Shown one piece after another: positions 1 through 18,440 of a stretch of DNA of 64,000 nt (positions are counted from its first letter, which is position 1; every line of letters begins with the position of its first letter). Made by a program: the position numbers and the translations under genes. The stretch spans positions 160,001 through 224,000 of the forward strand of contig CAXXHA010000035.1 in NCBI GenBank assembly GCA_963662265.2. The letters run 5' to 3'. The stretch comes from Spirochaetia bacterium. GTDB lineage: Bacteria > Spirochaetota > Spirochaetia > CADAEX01. The notes beneath the pieces are model-generated. The model made no database searches. It worked only from the letters and a program-made list of their open reading frames with translations, and was not told the origin of the DNA.

Positions 1-1
1 T

Positions 2-3000
2 TCTGAAAAACCTATTGTAATATTTCTTGATGATCTTCAGTGGTGCGATAGAGCGTCATATTATCTTTTAAATTATATACTTAATCTGTTTCATTTGTAT
101 GATAATATTTTTATTATTGCTGCATATCGTGATAATGAATTAAATGATGAATTAAAAACAATTGTAAAAAGCGCTGTAAAGAGAAAAGAAAATTATTTAA
201 GTATTTCTTTAGATTCTCTTTCTGCTGATCATACAGGAGAGATTATTAATAAAACATTTAATATTAATAATGCTTTTCTAAAAAAAATAGTTTATGAAAA
301 AACTGATGGAAATCCGTTTTTTATAAATCAGTTTCTTTTAAACTGTGTCAGAGAAAAAAGTATTTATTTTAATGAAAATACTCAATCATGGGATTATGAT
401 ATAAATGTAATTGATAAAGTCCCCCCTGCTGCTGATATTTGTCTGGTTTCCCTGGAAGCTGGGCTGAAAAATAATTCTGAAATGATCCAGCTGCTCAAGA
501 TAATTTCCTGTAACGGAGGCTCCTCTTTTGAGAAGGAAATATATGAATTATCCGGATTGAGTATGGAAAGATATGAGAAAGCTTTGTATTTAGCGCTGGA
601 TGCCGGATATCTTAAATTTACAGGATCAGATAATGAGAAGATATCATTTTCGCATGACCGTATCTACCAGGCATCATATTCTCTGATTCCAGACAGTAAA
701 AAATATATATATCATAAAAATACAGCTGAGTACCTTATCAGATCACTCTCAGATAAGGAAACAGAAAACCGCATTTTTGATATTACTGATCAGCTTATAA
801 GATCATATAAATTGAAACCTGATAATGAAATTGTTTCTGATAGCCAGGTTTTATTTCTTGCCGAATACTGCTTCAGAGCAGGAGATAGAGCTCTTTCAAT
901 AGCCGCATGGCAGTCTTCTTTAAAGTATTTCAAAACAGCTCTTGAGGTTTTTTCTGATACAGAGTGGATAAATCATTATGATTTTTCATTAAAACTTTAT
1001 ACAAGGGGTGCAGAATCTGCTCTTCTAAATCAGGAATATGAATTGATGGGAAAACTCATTTCCAGAGTTAAAGAAAAGGCCCATGATATTCTTGATATCA
1101 TACCTGCTTTGAAAATTCGGGGAATGTCATATATGGCAAGAGCAAGGCTTCCAGATGCCGTAGACCTGGGGAAACAGATACTTTTGCTTCTTGGAATAAA
1201 GATTCCTGAAAAGCATATCAAATTACATACTTTCATAGAGAGTTTAAAAGTCCGTTTTTATCTTAAATATGGCAATCGGAATGATCCTGAAACGGATAGA
1301 AAAACAGCTGTTCTTCTTGATTCTCTTATATTTACTTTTTCTCCGGCATACCTTGCTGCCCCGGAACTGTTTCCTGTAATTGTTCTAAAACAAATACCGT
1401 TATACGGAATGAATAAGACACATCCATTGTATCCTTTTTCAATGATTCTTTACAGTTTGTATCTGATTGCATCGGGAAATATTGATATTGCATATAAATA
1501 TGGTAAAGAAGCTCATGATCTGGTAGTAAATAATAATCATACTTACTTAATTCCTAAAATAAATTTTCTTTTTTCTCTATTTGTAAAACATTGGAAAGAT
1601 CCATTATCAGAATCTATGATGCTTTTCCGTGAAGGTTATAAAAATGGTATTTCATCAGGTGATTTTGAATATGTAACATATTGTATGAGTGCTGAGACTA
1701 TGAATTACATTTTTTCAGGTGATTATCTTCCGGAAGCTTTCAAGCAGATGTCTGATAATTACAGAGCTGTGAAAAATATGGGACAACAGCGTAATATGGA
1801 AACTATGAATATAAATAATTTAGTTGTTAGTAATTTATTGGCAATTACAGGAGACTGGAAAAGTCTTTCTACAGATACTTTTAATGAGGACTCAAATCTT
1901 GAAAGTCGGAAGGCTATAAATGAAACAAGCTATATTGGTATCTATTATCTTTATAAAATGATTTTGTCTGTCTGCTATGGGAATTATTCTGATGGAGCGG
2001 AATATCTTGATAAAGCTAAAGAGTATATAAAGGCTACAGTAGGGCAGACTTCAATTCAAGCATATTGTTTTTATTCTGCAATAATTAATTCGGAAAATTA
2101 CCGATTAAACAATCAGAGAAGTCGAAAACAATTGGAAGGAATTCTTTTTTCAATAAAGAACCTTTCTCAATGGGCAAAGCATTCTCCTGAAAACCAGCTA
2201 CACAGACTTTATCATGTAAAAGCTGAGTATTACTCAATTAAAAAAAAATATGATAAAGCATCCATGTATTTTAAACTTGCAATTAAAACTGCAGGAAGGA
2301 ATGGTTATATAAATGAGAAGGCTCTTGCGCTTGAAAGATTTGCTGAGTTTTATTTTTCCCGAAAAATGGAAAATGAGGGTGTCGGATATGTCGTTGAATC
2401 GTTTAACGCCTACAAAAAATGGGGAGCAAAAAGAAAGCTAATTCTTATGAAGGAACAGTATCCTGAAATACTTTCCTCATATAACACTCTGCTCCCCCAT
2501 GAGGAAAAAGAACGAATTACTGTTTTTACAGATTTTATTGACCGAGATGCGCTTGCAAAAGCAACCGGTACAATACTGTCAGAAATAAAGCAGTCTTCAT
2601 TATTTGAAAAACTTCTGACTATTCTTCTTCAGTATGCGGGTGCAGAAAGCGGCTATCTTTATGTTACGGTCAATGGAATAGACCGGTTTGCTGCTTCTGC
2701 CGAAACGGTATCAGGGAAAATATCAGTAAGAACTGTATCCTGTTTCGGATCTGAAAAAATATCAAAAGAAAATTCTTTTTATAAATCTATTGTTAATTAT
2801 ACAGGAAGAACTCATGAAATCTTTAATCTTCCTTCTGATAATCCTGAAATTAATCCAGGCTTGTTTTCTGATTATAAGGATATTTCGGTTCTCTGTATTC
2901 CAATAATCCGGCAGAGTAAAAAGCAGGGGATAATACTGCTTGTAAATACAATAAATCGATCAGGTTTCAGTAAAAAAACAGAACAGATGATAAAAGTTAT

Positions 3001-3874
3001 TGCATCCCAGGCATCAATTGCTCTTGAAAATGCAAGACTTTATTCAGAACTTGAAAAACAGATAAATATTCAGAATGATCTTAAAAAGGAGGGGCGGGTT
3101 CAGATTCAGAAACTTATGGATTCTGATAAGTTTGCATCAATCGGCTTTCTTCTTGAAGAACTTGCACATGAAATAAGCAATCCTAACCAGGCCGTTCTTT
3201 TGAGATCTTCATACCTTGAAGATGCATGTGAAAACATGATGAAACTTGCTGATGAATATTATGAAGAGGAAGGTGATTTTGATGTCGGAATAGAAATGTA
3301 TTCCGAATTCCGTAAAAATTTCCCCGAAGCCTTAGCTGCAATTACATCATCTTCAAGGCAGATAAATGCAATAATAAAAAACCTGAAAAGCTATATAAAA
3401 AATGAAAATATTCATGAAATAAATCATGTTGATCTGAATGAAGTTGTAGAAGAAACTGTCAGGCTTTCTTCTTTTTTTATCAGAAAAAAAACTTCCCGGT
3501 TTTATTTTAACAGGGGGAATGTCCCTCCTGTAGTTGGTAACTTTCAGAGACTTCAGCAGGTCATGCTTAATCTTATTCAGAACAGTTGTCTGTCGCTTTC
3601 TTCTCAGGACAAATGTATTAATATAAAAACAGAGTTTGACTGTCAAAGAAAATATGCTGTTATCACAGTAAATGATGAAGGAGAAGGGATATCTGAAGAG
3701 GAGGTGTTGAGAGCTAAGGAAAGATTTTTTACTACAAGAGGGAATAGAGGAGGAACAGGGTTGGGGCTTTCTGTATCTGATTCCATAATAAAAGAACATG
3801 GCGGAGAACTTATAATCTCATCAGTTCCTGGTGAAGGTACTGAAGTAAAAGTCTGCCTGCCTGTTGAGAAATAG
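2..3874 (+). CDS. Giant AAA/STAND ATPase-GAF-histidine kinase, 5'-truncated by the window edge (paralog A)
   Basis: Frame is open from base 2 (SEKPIVIFLDDLQWCD, Walker B), so the track start at 95 is not the real start. Has GNPFF and FSHDRI motifs, a GAF domain (CIPII...QASIALENARLY), H-box LAHEISNP and HATPase boxes NLIQNS/DEGEG/GTGLGL. Confidence 0.93.
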   Translation, partial: SEKPIVIFLDDLQWCDRASYYLLNYILNLFHLYDNIFIIAAYRDNELNDELKTIVKSAVKRKENYLSISLDSLSADHTGEIINKTFNINNAFLKKIVYEKTDGNPFFINQFLLNCVREKSIYFNENTQSWDYDINVIDKVPPAADICLVSLEAGLKNNSEMIQLLKIISCNGGSSFEKEIYELSGLSMERYEKALYLALDAGYLKFTGSDNEKISFSHDRIYQASYSLIPDSKKYIYHKNTAEYLIRSLSDKETENRIFDITDQLIRSYKLKPDNEIVSDSQVLFLAEYCFRAGDRALSIAAWQSSLKYFKTALEVFSDTEWINHYDFSLKLYTRGAESALLNQEYELMGKLISRVKEKAHDILDIIPALKIRGMSYMARARLPDAVDLGKQILLLLGIKIPEKHIKLHTFIESLKVRFYLKYGNRNDPETDRKTAVLLDSLIFTFSPAYLAAPELFPVIVLKQIPLYGMNKTHPLYPFSMILYSLYLIASGNIDIAYKYGKEAHDLVVNNNHTYLIPKINFLFSLFVKHWKDPLSESMMLFREGYKNGISSGDFEYVTYCMSAETMNYIFSGDYLPEAFKQMSDNYRAVKNMGQQRNMETMNINNLVVSNLLAITGDWKSLSTDTFNEDSNLESRKAINETSYIGIYYLYKMILSVCYGNYSDGAEYLDKAKEYIKATVGQTSIQAYCFYSAIINSENYRLNNQRSRKQLEGILFSIKNLSQWAKHSPENQLHRLYHVKAEYYSIKKKYDKASMYFKLAIKTAGRNGYINEKALALERFAEFYFSRKMENEGVGYVVESFNAYKKWGAKRKLILMKEQYPEILSSYNTLLPHEEKERITVFTDFIDRDALAKATGTILSEIKQSSLFEKLLTILLQYAGAESGYLYVTVNGIDRFAASAETVSGKISVRTVSCFGSEKISKENSFYKSIVNYTGRTHEIFNLPSDNPEINPGLFSDYKDISVLCIPIIRQSKKQGIILLVNTINRSGFSKKTEQMIKVIASQASIALENARLYSELEKQINIQNDLKKEGRVQIQKLMDSDKFASIGFLLEELAHEISNPNQAVLLRSSYLEDACENMMKLADEYYEEEGDFDVGIEMYSEFRKNFPEALAAITSSSRQINAIIKNLKSYIKNENIHEINHVDLNEVVEETVRLSSFFIRKKTSRFYFNRGNVPPVVGNFQRLQQVMLNLIQNSCLSLSSQDKCINIKTEFDCQRKYAVITVNDEGEGISEEEVLRAKERFFTTRGNRGGTGLGLSVSDSIIKEHGGELIISSVPGEGTEVKVCLPVEK
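500..1372 (+). repeat. Near-identical tract shared with 5585-6457 (offset 5085)
   Basis: Direct comparison shows only scattered substitutions, while the flanks are clearly diverged. Bases 1-49 also equal 5086-5134. Confidence 0.9.
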
Positions 3875-3880
3875 TATAAT

Positions 3881-6800
3881 ATGATAAATAAAATATATAA
3901 ATTTGAAAAAAATGATAAATTTAATAAAGATGTATTTTATCAGAAACTGAATGAATACAATAGCGTTGAATGCTCCTCTCTTATCAGTCCTGTAATATAT
4001 GATGAATCAGGTAATACAGGGATACTGTCATCTGAGGATGATTCTTTTTTCCTCTATAAACCGATTGCAGAATATAAAAAATTAACAGATGAAGACTTTA
4101 TAAAATTCTGTATATCTGCTGTAGAGGCGCTTTCTGATCTCCATAAAAGTGGATCAGATTTTGGAACGATTCATCCGGTATCAATTTATTATCTTTCTGA
4201 CGGCCCTGTCAGGTTCCTTCTTCCCGGATTTATTCCGCTAAATGATGAGAGTGAATTACTTTATTATGCATCCCCCGAAGCATTGGCTGATTCCGGGGAA
4301 GAGGAAAGGTCTGGTTGTATAAAAGACTACTATACACTTGGAATAATATTGCTGGAAATATTTACAGGTGAAAAGAAATATTTATTCAATACTGCACTTG
4401 AAACATTTCACCGCAAGATGACAACTGTGACTTCCCCTGCATCAGGGGAAGGTATATTTAATATCTTTAATAAAATGACAGCACTTAATCCGCAAGAAAG
4501 GTACCAGAGTGCTTCAGAAATAATACATGATTTTAAATACTGTCTTAAAAAATGTTCAAGTTCAGAATCAGAAGAGGCCTCGCTGGAATTCCATGAAGAG
4601 AGAGATTTTTCATTTTCAGTTTTCAGAATATCATGTGAGATTGAGGGCCGTGAAAAAGAGACAGCTTTGCTTGAAAAATCATTCAGAGATACAGCAAATG
4701 GAAAAAGCCGTATTGTTTTTGTTAGCGGATATTCAGGTATCGGAAAAACATCTTTAGTAAGCAATTTTCTTGAAATTATTCACCCTGCTTCCGGTTTTAT
4801 CCTAAAAGGAAAATTTGATCAGTATAATAACAGTCCATATACTGGATTTGTTCAGATATTCAGTACTCTTTTCGGAAAGCTTCTTCAGTTTGATGAAGAT
4901 AAACTGTCGTTATACCGTGACAGAATAATAAAACTTCTCGGAAGAAGCGGAAAACTTTTAACAGATATTGTTCCTGTGCTTGAAAAAATTACAGGCTGTT
5001 ATTCAGAACCGGAAGTAACAGGTGCTGTTGAAGTTAATAATTATATTACATATATGTTTCATAAGCTGCTTTCTTTATTTGCATCTTCTGAAAAACCTAT
5101 TGTAATATTTCTTGATGATCTTCAGTGGTGCGATTGCGCATCTTTTAATCTTCTTAAAAATCTTTATAAAACTCTTTATATGTATGAGAATTTACTGATA
5201 ATAGCAGCCTACCGAGATAATGAAATAAACAGTGAACTTGAAAAAATATTAAAAGTCTGTTCAGAGGGAATGATTGATTATCTTAATATAGAACTTTCTT
5301 CTCTTTCTCCTGAGCAAACCGGTTGTATTCTTGATAAATCATTTTCTATAAACGATATTGTATTCAAAGAAATAATACACGAAAAGACAGATGGCAATCC
5401 TTTTTTAATCAACAGTTTTCTATCAAGCTGCTTTAATAAGAATTATATATATTTTAATAAAGATAAATGTATCTGGAATTGGATAAAAGAGGAAATTGAA
5501 AAAGAACCGTTCGCAGGGGAGATTTATAAACACTTTTCAAATACTGTTAAAAAATATGATCCCGACATGATTGAGCTACTTAAAATAATTTCCTGTAACG
5601 GCGGCTCCTCTCTTGAGAAAGAATTATATGAATTATCCGGATTGAGTATGGAAAAATATGAGAAAGCTTTGTATTTGGCGCTGGATGCCGGATATCTTAA
5701 ATTTACAGGATCAGATAATAAAAAGATATCATTTTCTCATGACCGTATCTACCAGGCATCATATTCTCTGATTCCAGACAGTAAAAAATATATATATCAT
5801 AAAAATACAGCTGAGTACCTTATCAGATCACTCTCAGATACGGAAACAGAAAACCGTATTTTTGATATTACTGATCAGCTTATACGAGCATATGAATTAA
5901 AACCTGATAATGAAATTGTTTCTGATAGCCAGGTTTTATTTCTTGCTGAATACTGCTTCCGAGCAGGAGATAGGGCTCTTTCAACAGCAGCATGGCAGCC
6001 TTCTTTAAAGTATTTCAAAACAGCTCTTGAAGTTTTTTCTGATACAGAGTGGATAAATCATTATGATTTTTCATTAAAACTTTATACAAGGGGTGCAGAA
6101 TCTGCTCTTTTAAATCAGGAATATGAATTGATGGAAAAACTCATTTCCAGAGTTGAAGAAAAGGCCCATGATATTCTTGATATCATACCTGCTTTGAAAA
6201 TTCGGGGAATGTCATATATGGCAAGAGCAAGGCTTCCAGATGCCGTAGACCTGGGGAAACAGATACTTTTGCTTCTTGGAATAAAGATTCCTGAAAAGCA
6301 TATCAAATTACATACTTTTATAGAGAGTTTAAAAGTCCGTTTTTATCTTAAATATGGCACCCGGAATGAACATGAAACGGATAGAAAAACAGCTGTTCTT
6401 CTTGATTCTCTTATATTTACTTTTTCACCGGCATACCTCGCAGCCCCGGAACTGTTCCCAATAATAGTTCTCAAACAGTTACCACTGTATGAAAAAAATA
6501 CAAGTTATCCTCTTTATCCTTTTTCTTTGATTCTTTACAGTCTTGTTTTATTTGGTTTAAGTAAAATTAAAGTTGCTTCTGTTTATGCTGAAAATGCTTT
6601 CAAGATTACTTTACAAAATAATAATAAATTTCTTTTACCTAAAATATCATTTCTGTTTACCCAGTTTTTAATTCACTGGACAATGCCATTATCCGAGACT
6701 ATAAAGTTTTTCCAGAAGGGATATAAAGATGGTCTGGTGTCCGGTGATTTTGAGTATGTTGGCTATACACTTGCCTGTGAACTCAATAATCGTTTATATA

Positions 6801-10373: not shown

Positions 10374-10531
10374 ATGGTTCCCTATGGGGCTTGTGTTTGC
10401 TGATTATGGTTAGTTGTCATAACAGATTTATTGTTAATAATATTCTAATGTATTTTGTAGTTTGTGATGAATAACAATAAGTCTTCTCCCTATATACTAT
10501 GAATCAGGCCTTTTATGATAGATTTTAATGG

Positions 10532-10575
10532 GTCAATAAATGTTTATTATTTACTATATGTCAACAAAAGTTGTC
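10532..10575 (+). promoter_or_regulatory. Tandem putative enhancer (UAS) sites
   Basis: GTCAATAAATGTTTAT (10532) and GTCAACAAAAGTTGTC (10560). The same motif pair lies before two other sigma54 promoters. Confidence 0.7.
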
Positions 10576-10648
10576 AGATATAAATATTGAAATTTTAACT
10601 GTATAATATAAATCCTTTTAGTATAAGAAAATATATAACTTTCAGACC

Positions 10649-10664
10649 CGGCATTAAATTTGCT
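10649..10664 (+). promoter_or_regulatory. Sigma54 -24/-12 promoter of the tlpA-like operon
   Basis: CGGCATTAAATTTGCT: GG(10650)-N10-GC(10662), followed by an SD and ATG 10709. Confidence 0.8.
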
Positions 10665-10708
10665 TATATGAATAAGTAAATTATCAATTATAAAAATCGG
10701 GAGTTATT

Positions 10709-11246
10709 ATGAAAAAACACAACAATATATTTTATGGATACAAGAGTCCTTCTTTTCGATTTAAACTGTATTCAGTATTATTTCTTTTAACCGCCACAGT
10801 ATCAGTAGTTTCACTTGATAAGGGAGATGAAGCAGCCAATTTTGCAAATATTGATCTATCTGGAAATTTTGAATTCTCAAAAAATTATATTGGAAAAGAT
10901 TGGGTGATAATGGACTTTTTTGCTACTTACTGTATTCCCTGTAAAGAGGAGATCCCTGAACTTGAAGCTCTTTATTCAGAATTCTCTGAAAAAGGACTAA
11001 GATGTTTTGTTTTTTGCAACAGATAAAAACGGGAAGAATGTTGTCGATCCATATTTTAAGGCAGTCCCTACAACGTTAAAAGTTCTTCTTGATAATTACA
11101 TGGTAACAGCAAAGCGCTTTAATGTTGAATCAATTCCTACTGTTTTTCTTATAAATCCGGAAGGTAAGATCGCTTTTAAAGCAGTTGGCTATAAAAAAGA
11201 ATCAATTGAAAAAATGCATGCTATATTGTCAGAAGCATTGAAATGA
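10709..11246 (+). CDS. TlpA/ResA-family thiol:disulfide oxidoreductase, split by one +1 frameshift
   Basis: DFFATYCIPCKEEIPEL (CxxC) and SIPTVFLINPEGKI. Removing one T from the run at 11010-11015 joins ORFs 10709-11026 and 11007-11246. Confidence 0.85.
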
Positions 11247-12154
11247 ATAGAATAATTCTGGTTCTTCTTTGTTTGTTCTTTATTCTGATCAGCATTGCCT
11301 ACTCAGCTGGTTCCGGGGAAAAAAAAGTTGATATATATTACTCTTCATCTCTTAACGGAAATCTTGACGGCTGTGACTGTAAAGACCACCCTAGAGCAGG
11401 TCTTGTAAAGCGGGCACATTATTTAAGAAATATAGAAAGAATAAAGTCCCTGCTTCTTGATGCTGGTGATGTTTTTGATTCTTATGAAGATTCTCTTCTT
11501 TCTGATTATATAACAGAGAGTTATGTGGAACTTGGTTATGATCTTGTTGCTATAGGAGATCAGGAACTTTCAAACGGGACTGAATATCTTTTAAAAAAAG
11601 TTAATAAAGGGCTTTTCAGGTGCAGCAACTTACAGCTTAAAACTTTATCAGGGGCGTTTAAGAAAATAACATCACCTCCAATTATAATTAAAAGGGGTGG
11701 GATAACTTTTTCTGTTATATCATTAATTGATCCTTCTGTGTTCATGTTTTATTCTGGAGAACTTAAGAAAACAATAAAAACAGATAATCCTGAATCATCT
11801 CTGTCTGATCTTCTAAAAGATAAAAAGGTTCAGTCTTCAGAAGTAAGAATACTTGTCTTTCATGGAACAATAAAATATGCTCGTATGCTTGCTAAAAGAT
11901 TTCCTGATCTTGATATTATTATTGCTGGGCATGAGCAAAAGTTAATTGATATGGAATATGTCGGAAATACTGTAATTTTATCTCCGGGGGAGGATGGGAA
12001 CAGGCTGGGGAAACTGACTGTTACATATACTGAAGAACAGCTTTTTTTAAAAAATAACTTTATTTTATTTGAATATATGAAAGATCCTGATGATGGCAAT
12101 ATCCGAATGAAGATTTATAAATATCTTGATGAAATGAAAAATAGGCTTAGGTAG
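11243..12154 (+). CDS. Exported UshA/5'-nucleotidase-like metallophosphoesterase-fold protein with CxC motif
   Basis: Signal peptide, GNLDGCDC..PRAGLVKRA, LLLDAGD, AIGDQE, IIIAGHE. Lacks the C-terminal 5'-nucleotidase domain. Confidence 0.75.
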   Translation: MNRIILVLLCLFFILISIAYSAGSGEKKVDIYYSSSLNGNLDGCDCKDHPRAGLVKRAHYLRNIERIKSLLLDAGDVFDSYEDSLLSDYITESYVELGYDLVAIGDQELSNGTEYLLKKVNKGLFRCSNLQLKTLSGAFKKITSPPIIIKRGGITFSVISLIDPSVFMFYSGELKKTIKTDNPESSLSDLLKDKKVQSSEVRILVFHGTIKYARMLAKRFPDLDIIIAGHEQKLIDMEYVGNTVILSPGEDGNRLGKLTVTYTEEQLFLKNNFILFEYMKDPDDGNIRMKIYKYLDEMKNRLR

Positions 12155-12168
12155 TTAGATTTAAAAAA

Positions 12169-12190
12169 CAGCTGCCGGATATGACAGCTG
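12169..12190. terminator. Hairpin between convergent genes
   Basis: CAGCTG-N10-CAGCTG with an A-tract on the left. Confidence 0.5.
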
Positions 12191-12205
12191 ATTTAATGAA
12201 ATACT

Positions 12206-12669
12206 TTAATAAATGTGTATGTATCGGGGAGCTTCATCTCCAGTATAATTCCAGCCGCTGCTGTTCCCATATTTGTCATAAATCCGAAGTTGCCAGTATA
12301 CGTCATTACCTGCAGTTAATGTTGTTGTAAATTGATATTCGGACTCAGTGACCGGATGCACTGCTGCAGAGGGGAGATCGTTTAACTGATAAAGCCCATC
12401 TGAAATCATATCTTGCAGCATTTTTAAGGTCAGGCCAGTCAAAAAGCGGTGTTGTGTCATTTGTCCAATCTAAGGGATGCCAGTTATATACACTTTCAAT
12501 ATCTCTTATTTCATAATCGCCTTCTCCTGTGACAGGATCGGTGTTTTTTTACCAGACACCATCCCTGATAATCTTCGCCATCCTTATCATATGGATTATC
12601 ATACCCGTGGCATGATAATATTAAAAATATAATGCTTATAATTATTATTAATTTAGAAAGTAATTTCAT
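12206..12669 (-). CDS. Lipoprotein of unknown function (frameshifted in this assembly)
   Basis: ATGA overlap with the upstream stop. MKLLSKLIIIISIIFLILSC lipobox. Two +1 shifts join it to ORF 12206-12460. Confidence 0.65.
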
Positions 12670-13787
12670 TGTTTTTCCTCCAGTGTAGATAGTTTACTTT
12701 TCAGTGTTATAATCTTGTTTTGGAAATCATTGGTTTTATCTTTTTTAAACCACATGATTGCTGATGTGATTAAAAATATATCGCCTGTAGTAATATATAT
12801 GATCCATAATTTATCATAAGTCTGGGTATCCTCTGTGTGTTTTTTCAATGTCTTCCTTGAAAATGGATTTTGCATAATTATCATAAGCTTCATCACTTTT
12901 CTCCTTGCAATAGTAAGCAGCACCAACAGATGCTATTCCCGCCCCTGTAAATACATATTTCAGGGACCTTTCTCCTCTTTGCTGCTTTTTTTTCTTTACT
13001 CAGCTTTTTCTCGAAGTAGGCTATTTCATTATTCAATCTGTTTTTTTTCTGTAATTCTGTCATACTCAGCCTTCTTCTTTCTGGACTTAGTAAGCAGTTT
13101 GTCAGCACGTGATTCAAGGTCTGCAAATGTGTATTTGCTGTCAATCATTGTTTTCAGGTGTTCTTCAACTTCTGAAGGGAATATTGATATGTCATCTTCC
13201 GAGATTGTTGTATATCGTGATTCAAGTTCCTCCTGCGTTGTAAGGAATACAGCGTATGTATCTTTTCTAAGCTCATCGCTGTAAGCAGTTGCGCTTGCTT
13301 TTTCTGTCTGTTTAAGTCCTGCTAGCTTGTAGGCAAGATCATCTGCAGAGTCAGGAAGTTTATCCATGGATGTAAATACAACTTTTTCCGCCTTAAGATT
13401 CTGCCCCAATGTTACATCGATGATTTTTGCATTTAGGGACAAAACCTGTTCCTACGCTTGAGAGTGTTTCCCAGTACTATTTTTTTCTGCTGCCAGGAGT
13501 TTTCCTATTTCTACAGCGCAGTTTTCATCTGTACAGCCTGTGAGTGTAAAAGCCTGCGCATTGAGTATTTCCTCTATCTGGTTCTGTTCTATTACAACAA
13601 ACTCTTCTGTCTGAACAAGTGCTGTTTCAAAAAGGCTTGATGCTGTTACTGCTTCTATTTCTGATACACCTACACCGCTGAACGGGATTACCGCCATTCT
13701 CGGTTTGTCCTGGGAGTAGACTGCAGATGCAAGGGAAATAAATAAAATCACATTTAGATATGTAACATTTCTTATAACTTTATTCAT
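12666..13787 (-). CDS. CsgG/HfaB-like exported protein with coiled-coil C-terminus (about 6 frameshifts)
   Basis: Signal peptide then PRMAVIPF...FVVIEQNQIEEILNAQAFTLTGCTDENCAVEIGKLLAAE. ORFs 13452-13787, 13029-13442, 12893-13144 and 12666-12926 join after removing single inserted bases. Confidence 0.75.
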
Positions 13788-13812
13788 GTTAATACTCCTT
13801 ATGATTATAGTT

Positions 13813-13828
13813 AGCAGGATTTGTGCCA
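13813..13828 (-). promoter_or_regulatory. Sigma54 -24/-12 promoter of the CsgG-like operon
   Basis: Minus strand reads TGGCACAAATCCTGCT, near consensus. AAGGAG SD follows. Confidence 0.85.
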
Positions 13829-13901
13829 GTGGTTGTTTTATTGTAAAGTTATGTTTTATAAGGAGTTATTTAATAATTTCCTTTATACATGTCATTATTA
13901 T

Positions 13902-13948
13902 GACAATAAAAGTTGACTTGGATTGTCGTAAAGAGACATTTTATTGAC
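13902..13948 (-). promoter_or_regulatory. Tandem putative enhancer (UAS) sites
   Basis: Minus strand GTCAATAAAATGTCTC (from 13948) and GTCAACTTTTATTGTC (from 13917). Confidence 0.7.
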
Positions 13949-14093
13949 AATAATATATTTTCGTTTTTTAGGAATATTATTCCTGGATGAAATAATCGAA
14001 GGTTTTATTATGATTTGTAAAATAAAAACTTGATTTCCGTTGAAACCTGTCCATATAAATATTTTTGCAGTTATTTTGACTGCGGAGAAATCT

Positions 14094-15598
14094 ATGAAAA
14101 AGTTTTTTTTTATCTTTCTTTTTTATTATTACTGTTTCTGCTTCTATTCATTGTTATGAAATATCTCAGTCTTCTTGGGATATTGGAACATTATCTTCAA
14201 GTTCCGGAATAAAAAAACTGGAAATTGAAATATATAATAATTCTGGAGAAAAAATAAAAATTGATATTATATCAACCTGCAGCTGTTTGTATTCAGATAA
14301 ACAAAATATTAAACTTTCAGCTGGTAAATCAGTTTCTGTTGTGTTTTTTTTTTGATCCTCTGGAAGAGAGAGGCAAAATATCCAAATACATGATTCTCCG
14401 TTCAACACAGGTCGGATTTTCTAAAGCTTTATTTGAAGTAACAGGTTTTGTTGAATCAGAATCAATTTCTGAAATTGTAAAAAACGGGCTTGATAATAAA
14501 AGCAGTTTTAAAGCTCTTGTAGAAAAAAATAATACTGAAAATACTGATATATCTGATAATGATGTATATATTAAATATTTTTACTCTGAAGGCTGTCGGA
14601 GCTGTTTACGGTTTTTTAAATGTTACTGTTCCTTCTCTTGAAAAAAAGTCTTAACAGAAAGATTTATGTTGATAGGCTGAATATTCTTGATGAAGAAATA
14701 TATAAAAAATATATTTCTGTTCTTTTTAAATTCGGCAAGGAGTATAATGCTGATATCCCTGCACTTTTAATAGATGAAAAACTTTTTAATGGTGAAGAAC
14801 AAATTACATCCGAATTTGAAAATGCGGTTAGAAATTATAAGGGGCTTTCTAAAATTCCAGATACTGAAACTAATACAGTAAAGGAATTTGTAATTGCTTT
14901 TATGCCTGTTGTAATAGCTGGTTTTCTTGATGGAATAAATCCATGTGTATTTTCAACACTTTTATTTCTTATATCAAGCCTTGTTCTTGCAGGAAAAAAA
15001 AGACAGGAGATTTTTTTTATAGGTATTTTTTTATTCAGCTTCAGTTTTTTTTAACTTACTTTTTAATAGGTCTTGGTCTTTTTCACGGATTGAGAAGTGC
15101 TTCTGTTTTCCCAGTAGTTTCTGAAATAATTAAATGGATTCTGATATTTTTTCTTTTAATAATTGCAGTGCTGAGTCTGTATGATTTTTTTCAAATCAGA
15201 AAAGGCCGTGCTGTTGATATTGTACTGCAACTTCCTTCCTTTTTGAAACTTCAGATCCACAGTGTAGTAAGAAAGCAGGCTAGAAACACCTCCATTATCG
15301 CCGGATCAGTTGTGCTGGGATTTCTTGTTTCGTTATTTGAACTTGCCTGTACAGGACAGATTTATTTTCCAGCAATTGCTTATATGCTTAAAACAGGGCA
15401 GAGAAGCGGGTATTTTTATTTAATAATTTATAATGCAAGTTTTATATTACCTCTTATGTTTGTATTTTTTCTAATCTACAAGGGAACAGGCTCTAAAGTT
15501 ATCACTCAGTTTTTTCAGAACCATATGGCAGGTATAAAAATATCTTTGAGTCTTTTATTTTTTTATTCTTAGTGGAGTTGTATTTTTTTTTAAATTAA
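14094..15598 (+). CDS. DUF1573 (Ig-like)-thioredoxin-like-CcdA/DsbD membrane fusion (multiple frameshifts)
   Basis: GGAG SD and ATG 14094. Reconstructed motifs IISTCSCL, YFYSEGCRSC, AGFLDGINPCVF, FELACTGQIY. The shifts fall in T/A-rich runs. Confidence 0.75.
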
Positions 15599-15628
15599 AG
15601 GTTTTCATGTTAAGGAAGTTTTTCAGTT

Positions 15629-15673
15629 GTCAACTAATGTTGTTTATAATTTAGTTTGTCAACTTTTATTTAC
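15629..15673 (+). promoter_or_regulatory. Tandem putative enhancer (UAS) sites
   Basis: GTCAACTAATGTTGTT (15629) and GTCAACTTTTATTTAC (15658). Confidence 0.7.
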
Positions 15674-15749
15674 AGTACTACTCGTATGTATAAATGTATA
15701 TTTTGTTGTAAATTGTTTTACAATAAACAGTTATCAGAAATGTAATAAT

Positions 15750-15765
15750 TGGTCTGAAATTTGCA
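15750..15765 (+). promoter_or_regulatory. Sigma54 -24/-12 promoter of the LPP20 lipoprotein unit
   Basis: TGGTCTGAAATTTGCA: GG(15751)-N10-GC(15763). Confidence 0.72.
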
Positions 15766-15809
15766 TAGTAACCTTTGAAGAATAATTAAATTATCAGAAG
15801 GAGATTATT

Positions 15810-16394
15810 ATGTTTAAAAAAATGATTATTGTTTTTGCAGCCTTTTTTGTTATTACTGCATGCGGATCCTCTCCAGCTCCAGCTCTTCTTGCAGCGCCTT
15901 CCCCTCACCCGCAAAAGCAGAATACAGATGTTCCCCAGTTTTTTCTACTGCCTCCTGTTGCAGAAGATGCGTTCTACGGGGTTGGATCTGCAAAAATGTC
16001 ATCAATTGATATGTCAAAGACAATGTCTATCTCAAGAGCGCGTGATGATATTGCAAGACAGGTAAATCTTCAGGTTAAGAATGCAATCACAGATTATGCA
16101 CAGGAAGCTGGAGCAAACAGTTCACAGACAATAAAGTTTGTTGAAACAGTTTCCCGGCAGATAGCAGAAGCAAAACTTCAGGGAGCAAAACCTAAGGAGA
16201 TGTATGTTTCAAAAGACGGTACAATTTATGCTCTTGTTGAATATCAGATTTCAAATTTTAAATCAGATGCAGATGAAATATTTAAACGTAATGAGGAAGC
16301 TGCATTTTCTGAATTCAAGGCAGCTCAGGCTCTTGAAAAACTTGATATGGAATTAAAGAATAATCCGACTAAATCTGTTCCAGTAACAGAGTAG
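15810..16394 (+). CDS. LPP20-family lipoprotein
   Basis: Lipobox ITAC. VPQFF...FYGVGSA...RARDDIARQV pattern typical of LPP20. Confidence 0.8.
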   Translation: MFKKMIIVFAAFFVITACGSSPAPALLAAPSPHPQKQNTDVPQFFLLPPVAEDAFYGVGSAKMSSIDMSKTMSISRARDDIARQVNLQVKNAITDYAQEAGANSSQTIKFVETVSRQIAEAKLQGAKPKEMYVSKDGTIYALVEYQISNFKSDADEIFKRNEEAAFSEFKAAQALEKLDMELKNNPTKSVPVTE

Positions 16395-16496
16395 TAAAAC
16401 TTGTGCCTTGATATAAGTAATGTAAGTTTTGAATTGAACTAATTAGACAAGTTTATTTAAAAATGTGAATAATAAATAAAATTATAGAGGATTATT

Positions 16497-17291
16497 ATGT
16501 TTACAATCAGTACAAGAAAAGATTATTCCGATGCAGATAAGATATCTGATATTGATCACTTTAGAGAAGTAGATACTGATACATTATCATACGGGAAAAA
16601 AATAAATTTATATAATTTGATTACAGCTAATGAAAAAGTCTTAATCCTTGTACATGGTTACAATAATGTATTGGAAGATACGCTTGAAGCATACCGTCAT
16701 ATACATCAAAGAATTTTTGATTACTCTGTAGGGTATGATAGAGTTATAGGATTTCTGTGGCCAGGGGGTGATTCAAAACTTGATTATCATGTTCCCAGGC
16801 AAAGAACAAAAGAAATTGCACCCAGGTTTGCATATCATTTAAGAAAAATATCAAATGTCTGTAAAACAAAAGTAGATATTATGTGTCATAGTATGGGTGT
16901 GCGAGTGGTGTTTGAAGCGCTTAATTATGTTGATTTTGAAGATATCGGTAATGTTTTTACACTTGCAGCAGCTGTTGATAATGAAAAAATTGAAATAGAT
17001 GAAAAATATTTTGAACCGGGACAAAAAGCTGATAACTTATTTGTTTTTCATTCAAAGCGGGATAATGCATTAAAATATGCTTATAAACTAGGTGATTTTG
17101 ATTCCGCTCTTGGACTTACCGGACCGGAAAATCCTGCTCTTATTCTTGCACATAATAAAAATACAAGAGTAATTAATTGCAGTAAAAAAATATTTAAACA
17201 TGGTGCATACAAGTATAAGAAGGATGTGTACATAACTATAAAAAATCATCTTGAGAACAATTCATATTATCAGATATTTGATACTCTTTAA
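16497..17291 (+). CDS. DUF900-family alpha/beta hydrolase
   Basis: VLILVHGYNN, FLWPG, nucleophile elbow CHSMG, LAAAVD, HSKRDNAL, ALGLTGP, HGAY. Confidence 0.85.
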   Translation: MFTISTRKDYSDADKISDIDHFREVDTDTLSYGKKINLYNLITANEKVLILVHGYNNVLEDTLEAYRHIHQRIFDYSVGYDRVIGFLWPGGDSKLDYHVPRQRTKEIAPRFAYHLRKISNVCKTKVDIMCHSMGVRVVFEALNYVDFEDIGNVFTLAAAVDNEKIEIDEKYFEPGQKADNLFVFHSKRDNALKYAYKLGDFDSALGLTGPENPALILAHNKNTRVINCSKKIFKHGAYKYKKDVYITIKNHLENNSYYQIFDTL

Positions 17292-17334
17292 AATTATTAA
17301 GTATTGGACAATACATTTAATCAAGGATTTATAA

Positions 17335-18264
17335 ATGATATACATAGTTTCCAACAGGCTTGTTAATCATGAAAAAAATGATGAAGAAGTCTTTTCTGAT
17401 GATTTTGACAATACCGGGTATGAGGTATTGAGGGTTGCAAGAGCTTTTTATGTTGACAGCGGCGAGTGGAGTATTGAGCTTGTTGATGAGGAATTCGGCA
17501 GAGGGAAATCTGATATCCCCCTTTATAAAATATTCAAGGAAGTTTCATTATCCGATAGAAGTTGTGTTGTATATATTCACGGTTATGATTTATCTGTAAA
17601 GGCTATTCTTGAAAAATGCATTGAAATTGAAAGGTATGGTGTAAATGTTATTCTTTTTTTATGGCCTCCAAATCCGGGCCCCCAGTTTTTATTTTCTAAA
17701 ATAAACATTTGCAAAAAAGCCCGGAAAAATGTCAGAAGATCTGTCATTGCTCTTGAAAGGTTTTTTGAAATATTATGTGACTTTTCAGAAGTTAACGGCG
17801 ATTCGGGACAGCTGAAAACACTTGCTGTTAACGGACTAGGGAACTATCTTCTTCAGTCTCTTGTTGTAAGTCCTGATTTCGATTTCCAGTGCTCAGTTTT
17901 TAAAAATATTCTTATTCACCAGGCCGATGTTGACTGTATAGGCCATGAAGTATGGCTTGATAAGCTTGGAAAAAAAAGCAGAGTGATTGTCACTATTAAT
18001 GAGACAGACAGTCTTCTTGATTATTCCAATACAGGCAGTCCTGAAAAACTCGGTAACTGTAACCGTTATATGGTGTCAAAATATGCAGGTTATTATGATT
18101 TTACAGAAGCTGATGGTGCTGAAAATGAAAACCGCCTCTGGGGTGATCCTGCGAAAAGAAACAAACATATAAGAGATTTTTTTACAGATGTTTTTACCGG
18201 TACAAAGATAAGAAGAAACGGTATAGGGTTTAACCCTGTTGATAACTGCTTTGAAGTGATATAG
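17335..18264 (+). CDS. DUF900-like alpha/beta hydrolase, probably inactive
   Basis: VVYIHGY, FLWP, HQADVD, INETD. The elbow reads AVNGLG with no Ser. Confidence 0.7.
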   Translation: MIYIVSNRLVNHEKNDEEVFSDDFDNTGYEVLRVARAFYVDSGEWSIELVDEEFGRGKSDIPLYKIFKEVSLSDRSCVVYIHGYDLSVKAILEKCIEIERYGVNVILFLWPPNPGPQFLFSKINICKKARKNVRRSVIALERFFEILCDFSEVNGDSGQLKTLAVNGLGNYLLQSLVVSPDFDFQCSVFKNILIHQADVDCIGHEVWLDKLGKKSRVIVTINETDSLLDYSNTGSPEKLGNCNRYMVSKYAGYYDFTEADGAENENRLWGDPAKRNKHIRDFFTDVFTGTKIRRNGIGFNPVDNCFEVI

Positions 18265-18440
18265 GATTAACTCTTCCAGACTACACATCCCCGCCAAGTC
18301 TTTTTATATGCTCCGATTTCCCGATTCCTGAATAAGGATTTTCCATTACTGCCTTGTAAGATCAAAGCATTTTAACTAAAGTGATTTTTAGTTTTTTCTG
18401 ATCCATGTAATGTCTTTTTCTTCCTGTGTAGAAATATTAA
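18265..18440 (-). pseudogene. yoeB: Txe/YoeB toxin remnant
   Basis: Manual translation gives ...KCFDL / KAVMENPYSGIGKSEHIKRLGGDV*SGRVN, matching the YoeB GIGKPE...WSRR motif with stops and a frameshift. Confidence 0.65.

What the first reader, a model, noticed from the sequence alone, without database searches (positions are those of the whole stretch)
2..18264. Candidate undescribed system: twin STAND-ATPase histidine kinases signal through a sigma54 activator to an envelope thiol-redox/CsgG/LPP20/hydrolase cassette
Seen: two giant kinases with no obvious TM segments are closely coupled to an NtrC-type regulator, and the adjacent sigma54-type units encode mostly exported proteins. The block is more AT-rich than the housekeeping DNA after about 19 kb and ends in a toxin remnant. 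Known: STK-AAA-GAF-HK hybrids (HstK/Pkn type in cyanobacteria) rarely have defined outputs, and STAND ATPases are ligand-triggered switches. Inference: a complete input-to-output module in which a cytoplasmic cue induces a surface complex (CsgG-like plus lipoproteins) together with its own disulfide relay. I do not recognise it as a named system, and its function (stress, defence or competition) is open.
Basis: partly seen in the sequence, partly recalled or inferred. Interest (0 to 1): 0.78.

Follow-up and report, generated by a model that had tools for sequence, protein, structure and literature searches.

The report
Sigma-54 two-component regulon with eroded outputs
Two giant soluble sensor kinases and a sigma-54 activator sit beside three promoters that share one layout and drive cell-envelope genes, but many of those target genes are broken here, so this looks like an ordinary regulatory circuit in decay and not a new complete system.

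Summary
Two tandem paralogous kinases (66% identical) have a degenerate kinase domain, then AAA_16, GAF and histidine-kinase domains. They run straight into an NtrC-type REC/sigma-54/HTH_8 regulator. The block is 33.6% GC; the rest of the window is 39.8%.

New support for a regulatory link: three downstream units each carry a -24/-12 element. About 90 and 120 nt upstream of each lies a pair of GTCAAY boxes. That composite occurs only 3 times in 64 kb (0.25 expected).

Against a "complete, undescribed system":
- At least 15 frameshifts, mostly at A/T runs, break four output genes: the TlpA-like thioredoxin, the "CsgG-like" gene, a lipoprotein and the DUF1573/DsbD_TM gene.
- The second DUF900 hydrolase has lost its nucleophile serine, unlike 40 of 40 aligned relatives.
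- "CsgG" is only an LpoB/PelC/TolB-N-like domain.
- The kinase architecture is a described family (CP1 pseudokinase/COG3899).
- The thiol genes resemble a standard CcdA-TlpA reducing pathway.
- The toxin remnant found no tool support.

Co-occurrence in other genomes stayed effectively untested. The one genome scan returned generic NtrC loci, and 0 of 80 carry cassette genes. Interest is modest.

The parts
2..3874 (+). Sensor kinase 1. The window start removes roughly its first 400 residues. What remains is the tail of AAA_16, a helical region, GAF and a histidine-kinase transmitter.
   Evidence: Pfam GAF 867-1008 and HATPase_c 1182-1289. It aligns to kinase 2 from residue 403 onward at 66% identity.
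3881..8962 (+). Sensor kinase 2, 1693 aa. It has a degenerate protein-kinase domain (about aa 58-227), AAA_16 P-loop ATPase (256-441), a long helical region, GAF (1269-1409), an H-box and HATPase_c (1581-1690).
   Evidence: Pkinase C-lobe 19.3 bits, below the 31.7 cut-off; StkP/PknB, E 4e-4 to 7e-4; 10 of 10 nearest Atlas clusters have Pkinase+AAA_16+GAF.
8946..10373 (+). NtrC-type response regulator and sigma-54 enhancer-binding protein (REC, AAA+, HTH_8).
   Evidence: Response_reg 86.3 bits, Sigma54_activat 185.9 bits, HTH_8 32.5 bits. 'GAYTGA' and the Walker A motif are visible in the translation. One search gave many 51-58% identical relatives, several named as from Spirochaetia.
10532..10565 (+). 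Paired GTCAAY boxes (candidate activator-binding site) for promoter 1.
   Evidence: 1 of only 3 matches in the window. The boxes lie at -118 and -90 from the GG of the -24 element.
10650..10664 (+). Sigma-54-type -24/-12 element, GGCAT-N5-TTGCT. Its GC is 46 nt before the ATG at 10709.
10709..11246 (+). TlpA/ResA-like exported thioredoxin with a CxxC motif, split by one frameshift at a T6 run near 11010.
   Evidence: The two ORFs match collinear halves of single profiles. Thioredoxin: 18-49 and 53-99 of 103. ResA NF002854: 35-97 and 109-164 of 176. DNA shown.
11243..12154 (+). Exported UshA-like metallophosphatase-fold protein with a Cys-x-Cys motif. It is an intact 303-aa ORF.
   Evidence: NF041198, E 7e-30, 104 bits (cut-off 275), profile positions 3-274 of 519. 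The family is listed with a CxU motif in PMC13188914 and PMC2398784 (passages).
12169..12190 (.). GC-rich hairpin between the two convergent units (terminator-like).
12206..12669 (-). Small lipoprotein gene (signal peptide plus lipobox) broken into three frames, with at least 2 frameshifts, one at an A7 run.
   Evidence: Three-frame reading and DNA. No relative was available, so this rests on ORF geometry only.
12666..13787 (-). The 'CsgG-like' gene: signal peptide, an LpoB/PelC/TolB-N-like domain, then long helices with hydrophobic segments. It is broken by 6 single-base insertions.
   Evidence: A frameshift-aware alignment is collinear with the intact 369-aa relative P0123 (203 of 368 identical), with extra bases near 13484, 13468, 13437, 13037, 12964 and 12849. 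The model of the relative's family has pLDDT 79.
13813..13827 (-). Sigma-54-type -24/-12 element, GGCAC-N5-CTGCT. Its GC is 27 nt before the ATG at 13787.
13912..13948 (-). Paired GTCAAY boxes for promoter 2.
14095..15572 (+). Gene for a signal peptide, DUF1573 Ig-like domain, CxxC region and DsbD_TM (CcdA-like) membrane domain. It is broken by 6 frameshifts at T9, T10, T6, A7, T7 and T7 runs.
   Evidence: It is collinear with the intact 488-aa relative P0152 (264 of 487 identical), with events at 14344, 14612, 14649, 15029 and 15558. The shift at the start codon is read. Relatives carry DUF1573 and DsbD_TM.
15629..15663 (+). Paired GTCAAY boxes for promoter 3.
15751..15765 (+). Sigma-54-type -24/-12 element, GGTCT-N5-TTGCA. 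Its GC is 46 nt before the ATG at 15810.
   Evidence: It has 3 mismatches to TGGCAC-N5-TTGC but keeps GG-N10-GC.
15810..16394 (+). LPP20-family lipoprotein.
   Evidence: PF02169, 36.4 bits (cut-off 25.9). The lipobox is visible in the translation.
16497..17291 (+). DUF900 alpha/beta hydrolase with no signal peptide and the HSMG nucleophile motif present.
   Evidence: PF05990, 71.2 bits. Sequence. Hydropathy.
17335..18264 (+). Second DUF900-family protein with no signal peptide. Its nucleophile motif has changed from [HYF]S[LMQH]G to NGLG.
   Evidence: Atlas: DUF900 clusters at 0.97. There are 379 relatives. 40 of 41 aligned members keep the Ser and only this one has Gly. 40 of 41 match PF05990 and this one does not.
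18265..18654 (.). Non-coding gap at the right edge of the AT-rich block.
   Evidence: Only short stop-to-stop fragments are present. No family, structure-sequence or DNA match was found.

Best explanation
This is a sigma-54-dependent two-component regulon in what appears, from the source names on relatives, to be a spirochaete genome.

How it is proposed to work:
- Two tandem paralogous cytoplasmic sensor kinases detect an intracellular cue. Each has a pseudokinase domain, an AAA_16/COG3899 P-loop ATPase, a helical region, GAF and a histidine-kinase transmitter. The architecture is shown. That they sense a cytoplasmic cue is inferred from the lack of membrane segments.
- Both kinases phosphorylate the single NtrC-type regulator encoded right after them. 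This is inferred from the operon structure, their near-identical regions around the phospho-accepting histidine, and kinase-regulator adjacency in distant relatives.
- The phosphorylated regulator binds paired GTCAAY boxes about 90 and 120 nt upstream of three -24/-12 promoters and activates them. The cis-elements are shown. Binding is inferred.
- The three target units are: (i) a TlpA-like thioredoxin and an UshA-like CxC protein; (ii) an LpoB/PelC-like periplasmic protein and a small lipoprotein; (iii) an LPP20 lipoprotein and two DUF900 hydrolases.
- A DUF1573/CxxC/DsbD_TM gene lies between units (ii) and (iii) without its own -24/-12 element. It would feed electrons to the exported thioredoxin.

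In this genome the output side is eroded. At least 15 frameshifts, nearly all single-base gains and mostly in A/T runs, break four genes, and one hydrolase has lost its catalytic serine. The kinases and regulator are intact. The circuit as sequenced is therefore a decaying envelope regulon, not a working complete system.
For: - Domains.
- Twin kinases: 66% identical.
- Three well-placed -24/-12 elements.
- GTCAAY-N20-28-GTCAAY occurs 3 times in the window, all upstream of and co-oriented with those promoters. Expectation is 0.25, and 0 of 100 shuffles reach 3.
- A 5-mer shared by all three upstream regions at two conserved places arises in 1 of 2000 dinucleotide shuffles. A shared 6-mer arises in 32 of 2000.
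- A kinase with a homologous transmitter sits directly upstream of the regulator in 4 of the 5 closest loci and divergently in the fifth.
- Frameshifts map collinearly onto intact relatives. The same aligner gave 0 internal frameshifts in two intact control genes.
- The thioredoxin halves are collinear on single profiles.
- Serine loss.
- Genes elsewhere in the window match their profiles essentially end to end, apart from one split outer-membrane efflux gene.
Against: - The a-priori sigma-54 consensus is not enriched in the window: 23 matches against 39.3 expected. The support is positional only.
- The third promoter has 3 mismatches to that consensus.
- An unbiased 'best 10-mer identical in all three' statistic was not significant: 65 of 500 shuffles reached it. 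The GTCAAY pattern was then defined after looking.
- No binding, transcription or phosphotransfer data exist.
- No related genome with the same arrangement was found. 0 of 80 loci carry a cassette gene, and in the six closest loci the flanking kinases (five of six) have PAS, GAF or solute-binding sensors and the neighbouring genes are mostly transporters.
- The frameshifts could be assembly errors. No substitution-type stop codon appears in either re-framed gene. Nearly all events go in one direction, and three lie in runs of only 3 bases.
Confidence: 0.6

Rival explanations
1. One reading: an intact, complete and previously undescribed input-to-output system. On this view the apparent frameshifts are homopolymer errors of the assembly.
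For: - At least 9 of the 15 events sit in A/T runs of 6-10 bases.
- Nearly all are +1.
- No substitution-type stop is seen after re-framing.
- Identity to relatives (54-55%) matches that of the intact genes (51-58%).
- The shared promoter layout argues that the units belong together.
Against: - Errors would have to be confined to about 3.6 kb. The 10 kb of kinase and regulator genes hold 13 A/T runs of 7 or more without a single frameshift, and the 44.6 kb beyond 19.4 kb holds 43 such runs with one split gene.
- The serine-to-glycine and histidine-to-asparagine changes in the second hydrolase are substitutions, not indels.
- The parts belong to described families.
- Conservation elsewhere is not shown.
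Confidence: 0.2
2. The adjacency is incidental. The two-component system regulates genes elsewhere, and the envelope genes are an unrelated decaying patch of an AT-rich island.
For: - 0 of 80 NtrC-family loci have these neighbours.
- In the six closest, the downstream genes are mostly transporters.
- Sigma-54 consensus matches are not enriched overall.
- The regulatory genes are intact while their supposed targets are broken.
Against: The only three copies of the paired GTCAAY composite in 64 kb each lie at the same distance upstream of a -24/-12 element, within 6 kb of the activator gene.
Confidence: 0.12
3. The homopolymer frameshifts are a contingency (phase-variation) mechanism, or are rescued by polymerase slippage, switching surface proteins on and off.
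For: - The breaks concentrate in genes for exported or surface proteins and in long A/T runs (T9, T10, A7, A8).
Against: - Six independent shifts per gene cannot revert together.
- Three of the six in the LpoB/PelC-like gene lie in runs of only 3 bases.
- Only two tracts reach the 9-10 bases that, from recalled knowledge, are needed for appreciable transcriptional slippage.
Confidence: 0.05
4. It is an anti-phage defence or competition island built around a STAND-like sensor.
For: - The AAA_16/STAND-like ATPase, the AT-rich composition and the hydrolase genes.
- Weak PADLOC hits of the pseudokinase domain to PD-T4-6 kinase models (E 3e-11).
Against: - The PADLOC hits are generic kinase and RtcR-type AAA+ similarities, and 8 of the 11 proteins scanned hit nothing.
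- The output is a conventional response regulator.
- No nuclease, TIR, protease or similar effector was seen.
- No integrase or mobile-element gene was seen in the block.
Confidence: 0.03

Closest known systems
NtrB/NtrC-, AtoS/AtoC- and ZraS/ZraR-type sigma-54 two-component systems
   Same: - The regulator has REC, a sigma-54 AAA+ domain and HTH_8. Its best NCBIfam hit is AtoC (327 bits, below the 714 cut-off).
- The kinase gene sits directly upstream.
- Targets carry -24/-12 promoters with upstream paired sites.
   Different: - No equivalog cut-off is reached.
- There are two sensors, and each is a 1,700-residue soluble pseudokinase/ATPase/GAF protein, not a membrane or PAS sensor.
- The targets are envelope proteins.
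CP1 (pseudo)kinase / COG3899 family, annotated 'trifunctional serine/threonine-protein kinase/ATP-binding protein/sensor histidine kinase'
   Same: - N-terminal kinase-like domain, AAA_16/COG3899 ATPase and GAF, with no membrane segment.
- 10 of 10 nearest Atlas clusters show this architecture.
- The family description in PMC12599244 section 10 (read whole) fits.
- A Leptospira protein with PK, AAA_16, GAF and SpoIIE domains is listed in PMC5100919 (passage).
   Different: - The kinase-like domain here is very degenerate. It scores 19.3 bits against a 31.7 cut-off, and the catalytic-loop and DFG positions are not conserved in the alignment.
[quoted passage not shown]
- Here a candidate output pathway can be read from the DNA.
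CcdA/DsbD-TlpA/ResA/Etrx extracytoplasmic reducing pathways
   Same: A DsbD_TM-type membrane protein and an exported CxxC thioredoxin-fold protein of ResA/TlpA type lie near a candidate client with a redox motif.
   Different: - The membrane protein carries an N-terminal DUF1573 Ig-like domain and its own CxxC region.
- The candidate client is an UshA-like CxC protein, not a cytochrome or methionine sulfoxide reductase.
- Both electron-transfer genes are frameshifted here.
- Knowledge of the model pathways is recalled. Of PMC3914529 I saw only the search listing and the start of the abstract.
LpoB / PelC / GNA1162 / TolB N-terminal / CsgG periplasmic-domain fold
   Same: The model of the intact relative's N-terminal domain matches LpoB (E 8e-6, target TM-score 0.53-0.57), PelC, GNA1162, TolB and CsgG pre-pore chains.
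   Different: - No CsgG barrel region is present. Pfam covers 39-91 of 210 positions in the window gene and 35-103 in the relative.
- The rest is a long helical region with hydrophobic helices.
- No curli genes are nearby.
UshA-like (seleno)protein family NF041198
   Same: The N-terminal half aligns (E 7e-30). A Cys-x-Cys motif stands where the family is listed with CxU.
   Different: - It scores 104 bits against a 275 cut-off.
- Only profile positions 3-274 of 519 are covered, so it is a short form or a truncation.
- It has cysteine, not selenocysteine.
DUF900 (PF05990) alpha/beta hydrolases
   Same: The first gene is a clear member (71.2 bits). The second belongs by relatives and by Atlas similarity.
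   Different: - The second has lost the nucleophile serine.
- The family has no assigned function. Five papers mention the name (listing only).

Membership tests
NtrC-family sigma-54 enhancer-binding response regulator | Receiver domain, sigma-54-interaction AAA+ domain with a GAFTGA-type loop, and a C-terminal Fis-type HTH | tested here: met
   Response_reg 86.3, Sigma54_activat 185.9, AAA_lid_14 57.5 and HTH_8 32.5 bits, all above their cut-offs. 'GAYTGA' and the Walker A motif are visible in the translation.
NtrC-family sigma-54 enhancer-binding response regulator | Membership of a named equivalog (AtoC, NtrC, ZraR and others) | tested here: not met
   The best hit, AtoC, scores 327 bits against a 714 cut-off. 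NtrC scores 291 against 559.
Sigma-54 regulon (targets) | GG-N10-GC promoter at a suitable distance from the start codon, with upstream activator sites | tested here: met
   Three elements with GC 46, 27 and 46 nt before start codons. The paired GTCAAY composite is unique to these three places. Function was not tested.
CP1 pseudokinase / COG3899 sensor proteins | N-terminal protein-kinase-like domain with degraded catalytic motifs | tested here: met
   Weak Pkinase C-lobe match (E 8e-4, 19.3 bits, below the 31.7 cut-off). phmmer to StkP/PknB chains gives E 4e-4 to 7e-4, with the catalytic loop not conserved in the alignment. Nearest Atlas clusters carry Pkinase in 93-100% of members.
CP1 pseudokinase / COG3899 sensor proteins | Linked COG3899/AAA_16 ATPase, frequent GAF or PAS domains, no membrane region | tested here: met
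   AAA_16 100.4 bits and GAF 31.5 bits. Hydropathy maxima are 1.46 and 1.75. Family description in PMC12599244 section 10.
STAND NTPases | P-loop NTPase with the STAND-specific helical/winged-helix module and a C-terminal repeat sensor | tested here: inconclusive
   AAA_16 is clear, and Walker A and B motifs are visible. The nSTAND_NTPase5 match is only 17 bits against a 34 cut-off. TPR matches in the helical region are far below cut-off. No structure was modelled.
Histidine kinase (HisKA/HATPase_c) | H-box histidine and a GHKL ATPase domain | tested here: met
   HATPase_c scores 72.8 and 73.1 bits. HisKA is only 19 bits against a 26.9 cut-off, but the H-box histidine is present.
CsgG curli secretion channel | Full-length CsgG lipoprotein including the barrel-forming region, with curli partner genes | tested here: not met
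   Only profile positions 39-91 of 210 match. The intact relative matches 35-103. The model shows an LpoB/PelC-like domain plus helices. No curli family turned up among the neighbours scanned.
CcdA/DsbD-TlpA reducing pathway | DsbD_TM membrane protein with membrane-embedded cysteines, plus an exported CxxC thioredoxin | tested here: inconclusive
   The window fragments themselves gave no Pfam hit. In the one Pfam-scanned relative that carries DsbD_TM (P0162) it scores 27.1 bits, exactly the cut-off, and source annotations list PF02683 or the name CcdA for many of the 120 listed relatives. Cysteines in hydrophobic segments are visible. The thioredoxin matches ResA and TlpA models below their cut-offs. 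Both genes are frameshifted.
UshA-like (seleno)protein NF041198 | Score above the curated cut-off across the 519-position profile, with a CxU/CxC motif | tested here: not met
   104 bits against 275, covering positions 3-274 only. The CxC motif is present.
LPP20 lipoprotein (PF02169) | Profile match above cut-off and a lipoprotein signal | tested here: met
   36.4 bits against 25.9. The lipobox is visible.
DUF900 alpha/beta hydrolase (PF05990) | Profile match and a nucleophile serine in the [HYF]S[LMQH]G motif | tested here: met
   Gene 16497..17291 scores 71.2 bits and keeps HSMG.
DUF900 alpha/beta hydrolase (PF05990) | The same features, for gene 17335..18264 | tested here: not met
   No Pfam match, while 40 of 41 aligned members match. 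Serine is replaced by glycine, uniquely among the 41. It is homologous by phmmer.
Known anti-phage defence systems (PADLOC-DB) | Match to a system-specific model set | tested here: not met
   Only generic kinase (PD-T4-6) and RtcR-type AAA+ similarities were found. 8 of 11 proteins had no hit.
Type II toxin-antitoxin toxin (remnant) | Detectable similarity to a toxin family | tested here: not met
   Four fragments against Pfam, seven against NCBIfam at E up to 10, one against PDB sequences and the DNA against plasmids all gave nothing. A resemblance I saw by eye rests on recall only.

The most novel reading that the evidence does not exclude
This locus would give the first readable output pathway for the CP1-pseudokinase/COG3899 ATPase class of giant soluble sensor kinases. 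On this reading a nucleotide-driven cytoplasmic switch, present in two diverged copies, feeds one sigma-54 activator. That activator recognises paired GTCAAY boxes and turns on an envelope-remodelling set: a reducing pathway for an UshA-like CxC protein, an LpoB/PelC-like ring protein with lipoproteins, and DUF900 hydrolases. The set would be conserved in related spirochaetes, and the breaks seen here would be either assembly errors or slippage-based on/off switching of surface proteins.
Probability: 0.12. Interest if true: 0.6.

Novelty: new member of a known kind. Interest (0 to 1): 0.36.

Why it matters
Sensor kinases of this giant class (pseudokinase, COG3899 ATPase, GAF) are common. [quoted passage not shown] Here the DNA itself suggests a full path from sensor to activator to three promoters with a shared binding-site layout. 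That gives concrete, cheap experiments: footprinting on the GTCAAY boxes, phosphotransfer assays and reporter fusions.

It also shows regulatory genes outliving their targets, if the frameshifts are real. It is a caution that a 'complete system' read from domain names can hide a row of pseudogenes.

If the frameshifts are assembly errors, the locus is simply one more sigma-54 envelope regulon with unusual sensors.

Tried and rejected
1. Genome-neighbourhood test. It returned neither the source genome nor the 51-58% spirochaetal group. 0 of 80 loci carry any of 16 cassette or neighbour queries. This is not a fair test of orthologous loci.

2. Matching 'longest contig' lengths across the three protein searches, by eye. 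No coincidence above 10 kb was found. Two coincidences below 5 kb are at chance level. This proxy is too crude to use.

3. Accession numbers as a proxy for adjacency. Only 1 of 10 proteins had an accession, so I dropped it.

4. Toxin remnant: no support.

5. PADLOC defence models: generic hits only.

6. Plasmid collection with the second hydrolase: one weak chromosomal-type hit at 24% identity, uninformative.

7. Rfam found no family and ARAGORN found no tRNA in the window.

8. The sigma-54 consensus is not enriched overall: 23 matches against 39.3 expected.

9. An unbiased triple-identity 10-mer statistic was not significant: 65 of 500 shuffles.

10. Shared AT-rich k-mers between upstream regions were mostly promoter-like low-complexity words.

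11. Two patterns had the wrong spacing and were ignored.

12. The DsbD_TM gene has no -24/-12 element upstream, by my reading.

13. BLASTP between the two hydrolase genes was not significant (E 0.14). Their relation rests.

Full report
**What is in the sequence**

ORF listing and profile scans give one co-directional unit on the plus strand. Kinase 1 occupies 2..3874 and is cut by the window start. Kinase 2 occupies 3881..8962 and is 1693 aa. The regulator occupies 8946..10373.

Kinase 2 carries these domains:
- AAA_16 at residues 256-441 (100.4 bits)
- GAF at 1269-1409
- a weak HisKA match around an intact H-box
- HATPase_c at 1581-1690

Its first 250 residues are a degenerate protein-kinase domain. 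Pfam matches only the C-lobe (19.3 bits, cut-off 31.7). phmmer against PDB sequences finds StkP and PknB at E 4e-4 to 7e-4, and the catalytic loop is not conserved in that alignment.

The two kinases are 66% identical over 1294 residues. At DNA level they are 57-80% identical. The exception is a block of about 750 bp at 95-99%, which looks like a gene-conversion tract. Hydropathy gives no convincing membrane segment.

The regulator has Response_reg, Sigma54_activat, AAA_lid_14 and HTH_8, all above their cut-offs. No NCBIfam equivalog cut-off is reached; the best hit is AtoC. Its closest relatives in the large protein set are 51-58% identical. Several are named as from Spirochaetia or Spirochaetales, as are relatives of two output genes.

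**Composition**

Positions 1-18264 are 33.6% GC and the rest of the window is 39.8%. Third-codon-position GC is 0.18-0.29 for the kinases and four intact output genes and 0.33 for the regulator, against 0.30-0.41 in nine flanking genes beyond 20.7 kb.

**The output genes**

Downstream of a hairpin after the regulator, the order is:
- a TlpA/ResA-like thioredoxin (10709..11246)
- an UshA-like metallophosphatase-fold protein with a Cys-x-Cys motif (11243..12154). It matches NF041198 at 104 bits against a cut-off of 275, covering profile positions 3-274 of 519.
- on the minus strand, a gene with a weak CsgG match (13787..12666), followed by a small lipoprotein gene (12669..12206)
- a gene whose intact relatives are about 490 aa, with a DUF1573 Ig-like domain, a CxxC region and a DsbD_TM domain (14095..15572)
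- an LPP20 lipoprotein (15810..16394)
- a DUF900 hydrolase (16497..17291)
- a 309-aa protein with no Pfam match (17335..18264)

The 309-aa protein is a DUF900 relative. Atlas similarity to DUF900 clusters is 0.97. An exhaustive phmmer search found 379 relatives, and 40 of the 41 aligned members match PF05990.

The 'CsgG' label is too strong. The match covers 39-91 of 210 profile positions. A model of the intact relative's family (pLDDT 79) shows an N-terminal alpha/beta domain. That domain matches LpoB, PelC, GNA1162, the TolB N-terminal domain and the CsgG periplasmic domain (E about 1e-5 to 1e-4). It is followed by long helices. There is no barrel region and no curli gene nearby.

By my reading of the N-termini, six of these eight genes have signal peptides, lipoboxes or membrane segments. 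The two DUF900-type genes have none.

**Evidence that the units are targets of the activator**

A search with the recalled consensus TGGCAC-N5-TTGC, allowing up to 2 mismatches, gave 23 matches where 39.3 were expected. The consensus is therefore not enriched.

Two of those matches are well placed. They lie in intergenic DNA and point at the thioredoxin gene (10650) and at the LpoB/PelC-like gene (13827). A third GG-N10-GC element with 3 mismatches precedes LPP20 (15751). The GC dinucleotides lie 46, 27 and 46 nt before the start codons.

I aligned the three upstream regions on the GG. Each shows GTCAAY boxes at about -120 and -90. The controls gave mixed results:
- A 5-mer shared by all three regions at two conserved places arose in 1 of 2000 dinucleotide-preserving shuffles, and a shared 6-mer in 32 of 2000.
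- The composite GTCAAY-N20-28-GTCAAY occurs exactly three times in the 64-kb window on both strands, at exactly these three places and co-oriented with the promoters. Expectation is 0.25, and 0 of 100 shuffles reach 3.
- An earlier, unbiased statistic (best 10-mer identical in all three) was not significant, being reached in 65 of 500 shuffles.
- The GTCAAY pattern was defined after looking, so the numbers above are generous.

Even so, the layout is what one expects of a sigma-54 regulon with tandem activator sites. It lies within 6 kb of an activator gene. The DUF1573/DsbD_TM gene has no such promoter, by my reading.

**The output side is broken**

- The thioredoxin is split. Its two ORFs match collinear halves of single profiles: Thioredoxin 18-49 and 53-99 of 103, and ResA 35-97 and 109-164 of 176. 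The junction is at a T6 run.
- The LpoB/PelC-like gene is collinear with the intact 369-aa relative P0123 in a frameshift-aware protein-to-DNA alignment (203 of 368 identical). It needs six single extra bases, near 13484, 13468, 13437, 13037, 12964 and 12849. Two further events in the poorly conserved signal peptide I discount.
- The DsbD_TM gene is collinear with the 488-aa relative P0152 (264 of 487 identical), with shifts at 14344 (T10), 14612 (T6), 14649 (A7), 15029 (T7) and 15558 (T7). A further shift at the T9 run just after the start codon is read.
- The small lipoprotein gene runs through three frames, with one junction at an A7 run. No relative was available to confirm this.

That makes at least 15 frameshifts in about 3.6 kb.

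The same aligner gave no internal frameshift for two intact control genes.

The 309-aa hydrolase relative has NGLG where 40 of 41 aligned family members have [HYF]S[LMQH]G. It alone lacks the nucleophile serine.

Elsewhere in the window the genes match their profiles essentially end to end. The exception is an outer-membrane efflux gene split at an A6 run.

A/T runs of 8 or more number 9 in 10.4-15.8 kb and 10 in the 44.6 kb after 19.4 kb.

**Real decay or assembly error?**

For error:
- At least nine of the fifteen events are in runs of 6-10 bases.
- Almost all are gains of one base.
- No substitution-type stop appears after re-framing.
- Identity to relatives is no lower than for the intact genes.

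For real decay:
- The kinase and regulator genes hold 13 A/T runs of 7 or more without a break, and the far flank holds 43 with one split gene. Errors would have to be confined to four genes.
- The serine and histidine losses in the hydrolase are substitutions.

I put real decay at about 0.6. The regulatory reading does not depend on which is true.

**Comparison with what is known**

- The kinase architecture is described. The review PMC12599244 (section 10, read whole) defines CP1 kinases and pseudokinases that lack membrane regions, are always linked to a COG3899 ATPase and often carry GAF or PAS domains. [quoted passage not shown]
- All ten nearest Atlas clusters carry this architecture. 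Several are named 'trifunctional serine/threonine-protein kinase/ATP-binding protein/sensor histidine kinase'.
- The UshA-like family is listed among (seleno)protein families with a CxU motif (passages of PMC2398784 and PMC13188914). The window protein has cysteine at both positions.
- A DsbD_TM protein plus an exported TlpA-like thioredoxin is the usual design of extracytoplasmic reducing pathways. This is recalled knowledge.
- No paper in the library mentions any two of LPP20, CsgG and DUF900 together.
- Five papers mention DUF900. I saw the listing only.

**Conservation elsewhere**

0 of 80 have any cassette gene.

In the five closest loci (46-50% identity) a kinase with a homologous transmitter flanks the regulator. 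It is directly upstream in four and divergent in one. Its sensor domains are PAS, GAF or solute-binding, and the downstream genes include transporters. The sixth (44%) is flanked upstream by a tRNA-synthetase gene and downstream by transport-system genes.

This shows that the kinase-regulator pairing is typical of the family. It says little about orthologues.

**Verdict**

The locus is still a member of a known kind, a sigma-54 two-component regulon with CP1/COG3899-type sensors. Its output genes are eroded in this sequence, and its parts belong to known families. Interest is modest. It would rise if the arrangement and the GTCAAY boxes proved conserved in related genomes.

Noticed in passing
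window 590-1340 and about 5675-6425: A block of about 750 bp is 95-99% identical between the two kinase genes, which are otherwise 57-80% identical at DNA level. It looks like recent gene conversion between tandem paralogues. The most diverged stretch (56-59%) lies in the helical region before GAF.
   Followed up: partly
window 55750-57058: An outer-membrane efflux (OEP/TolC-like) gene upstream of HlyD- and AcrB-family genes is split into two ORFs by a frameshift at an A6 run. It is the only broken gene seen outside the cassette.
   Followed up: partly
window 53332-53811 (-): An IS200-like Y1 transposase gene (PF01797, 73.7 bits).
   Followed up: no
window 19368-20432 (-): A LuxR-type regulator with a GerE helix-turn-helix and a weak autoinducer-binding/GAF-like N-terminal region sits just beyond the AT-rich block. 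Whether it relates to the block is unknown.
   Followed up: no
window 18655-19344 (+): An exported 229-aa protein with no family match lies directly after the block. Its GC (41%) matches the flanking DNA, not the block.
   Followed up: no
This gene family may be prone to interruption.
   Followed up: no
window 11243-12154 (+): The UshA-like protein covers only the first half of its 519-position family profile and ends right before a hairpin. It could be a natural short form or a truncation.
   Followed up: no
model of P0123 family: Lower-ranked fold matches include the Vibrio flagellar basal-body protein FlgT (rank 42). From recalled knowledge, LPP20-family proteins include flagellar FlgP. A link to a periplasmic ring structure is conceivable but was not tested.
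   Followed up: no
window 10400-15800: Long A/T homopolymers are concentrated here: 9 runs of 8 or more in 5.4 kb, against 10 in the 44.6 kb after 19.4 kb.
   Followed up: partly
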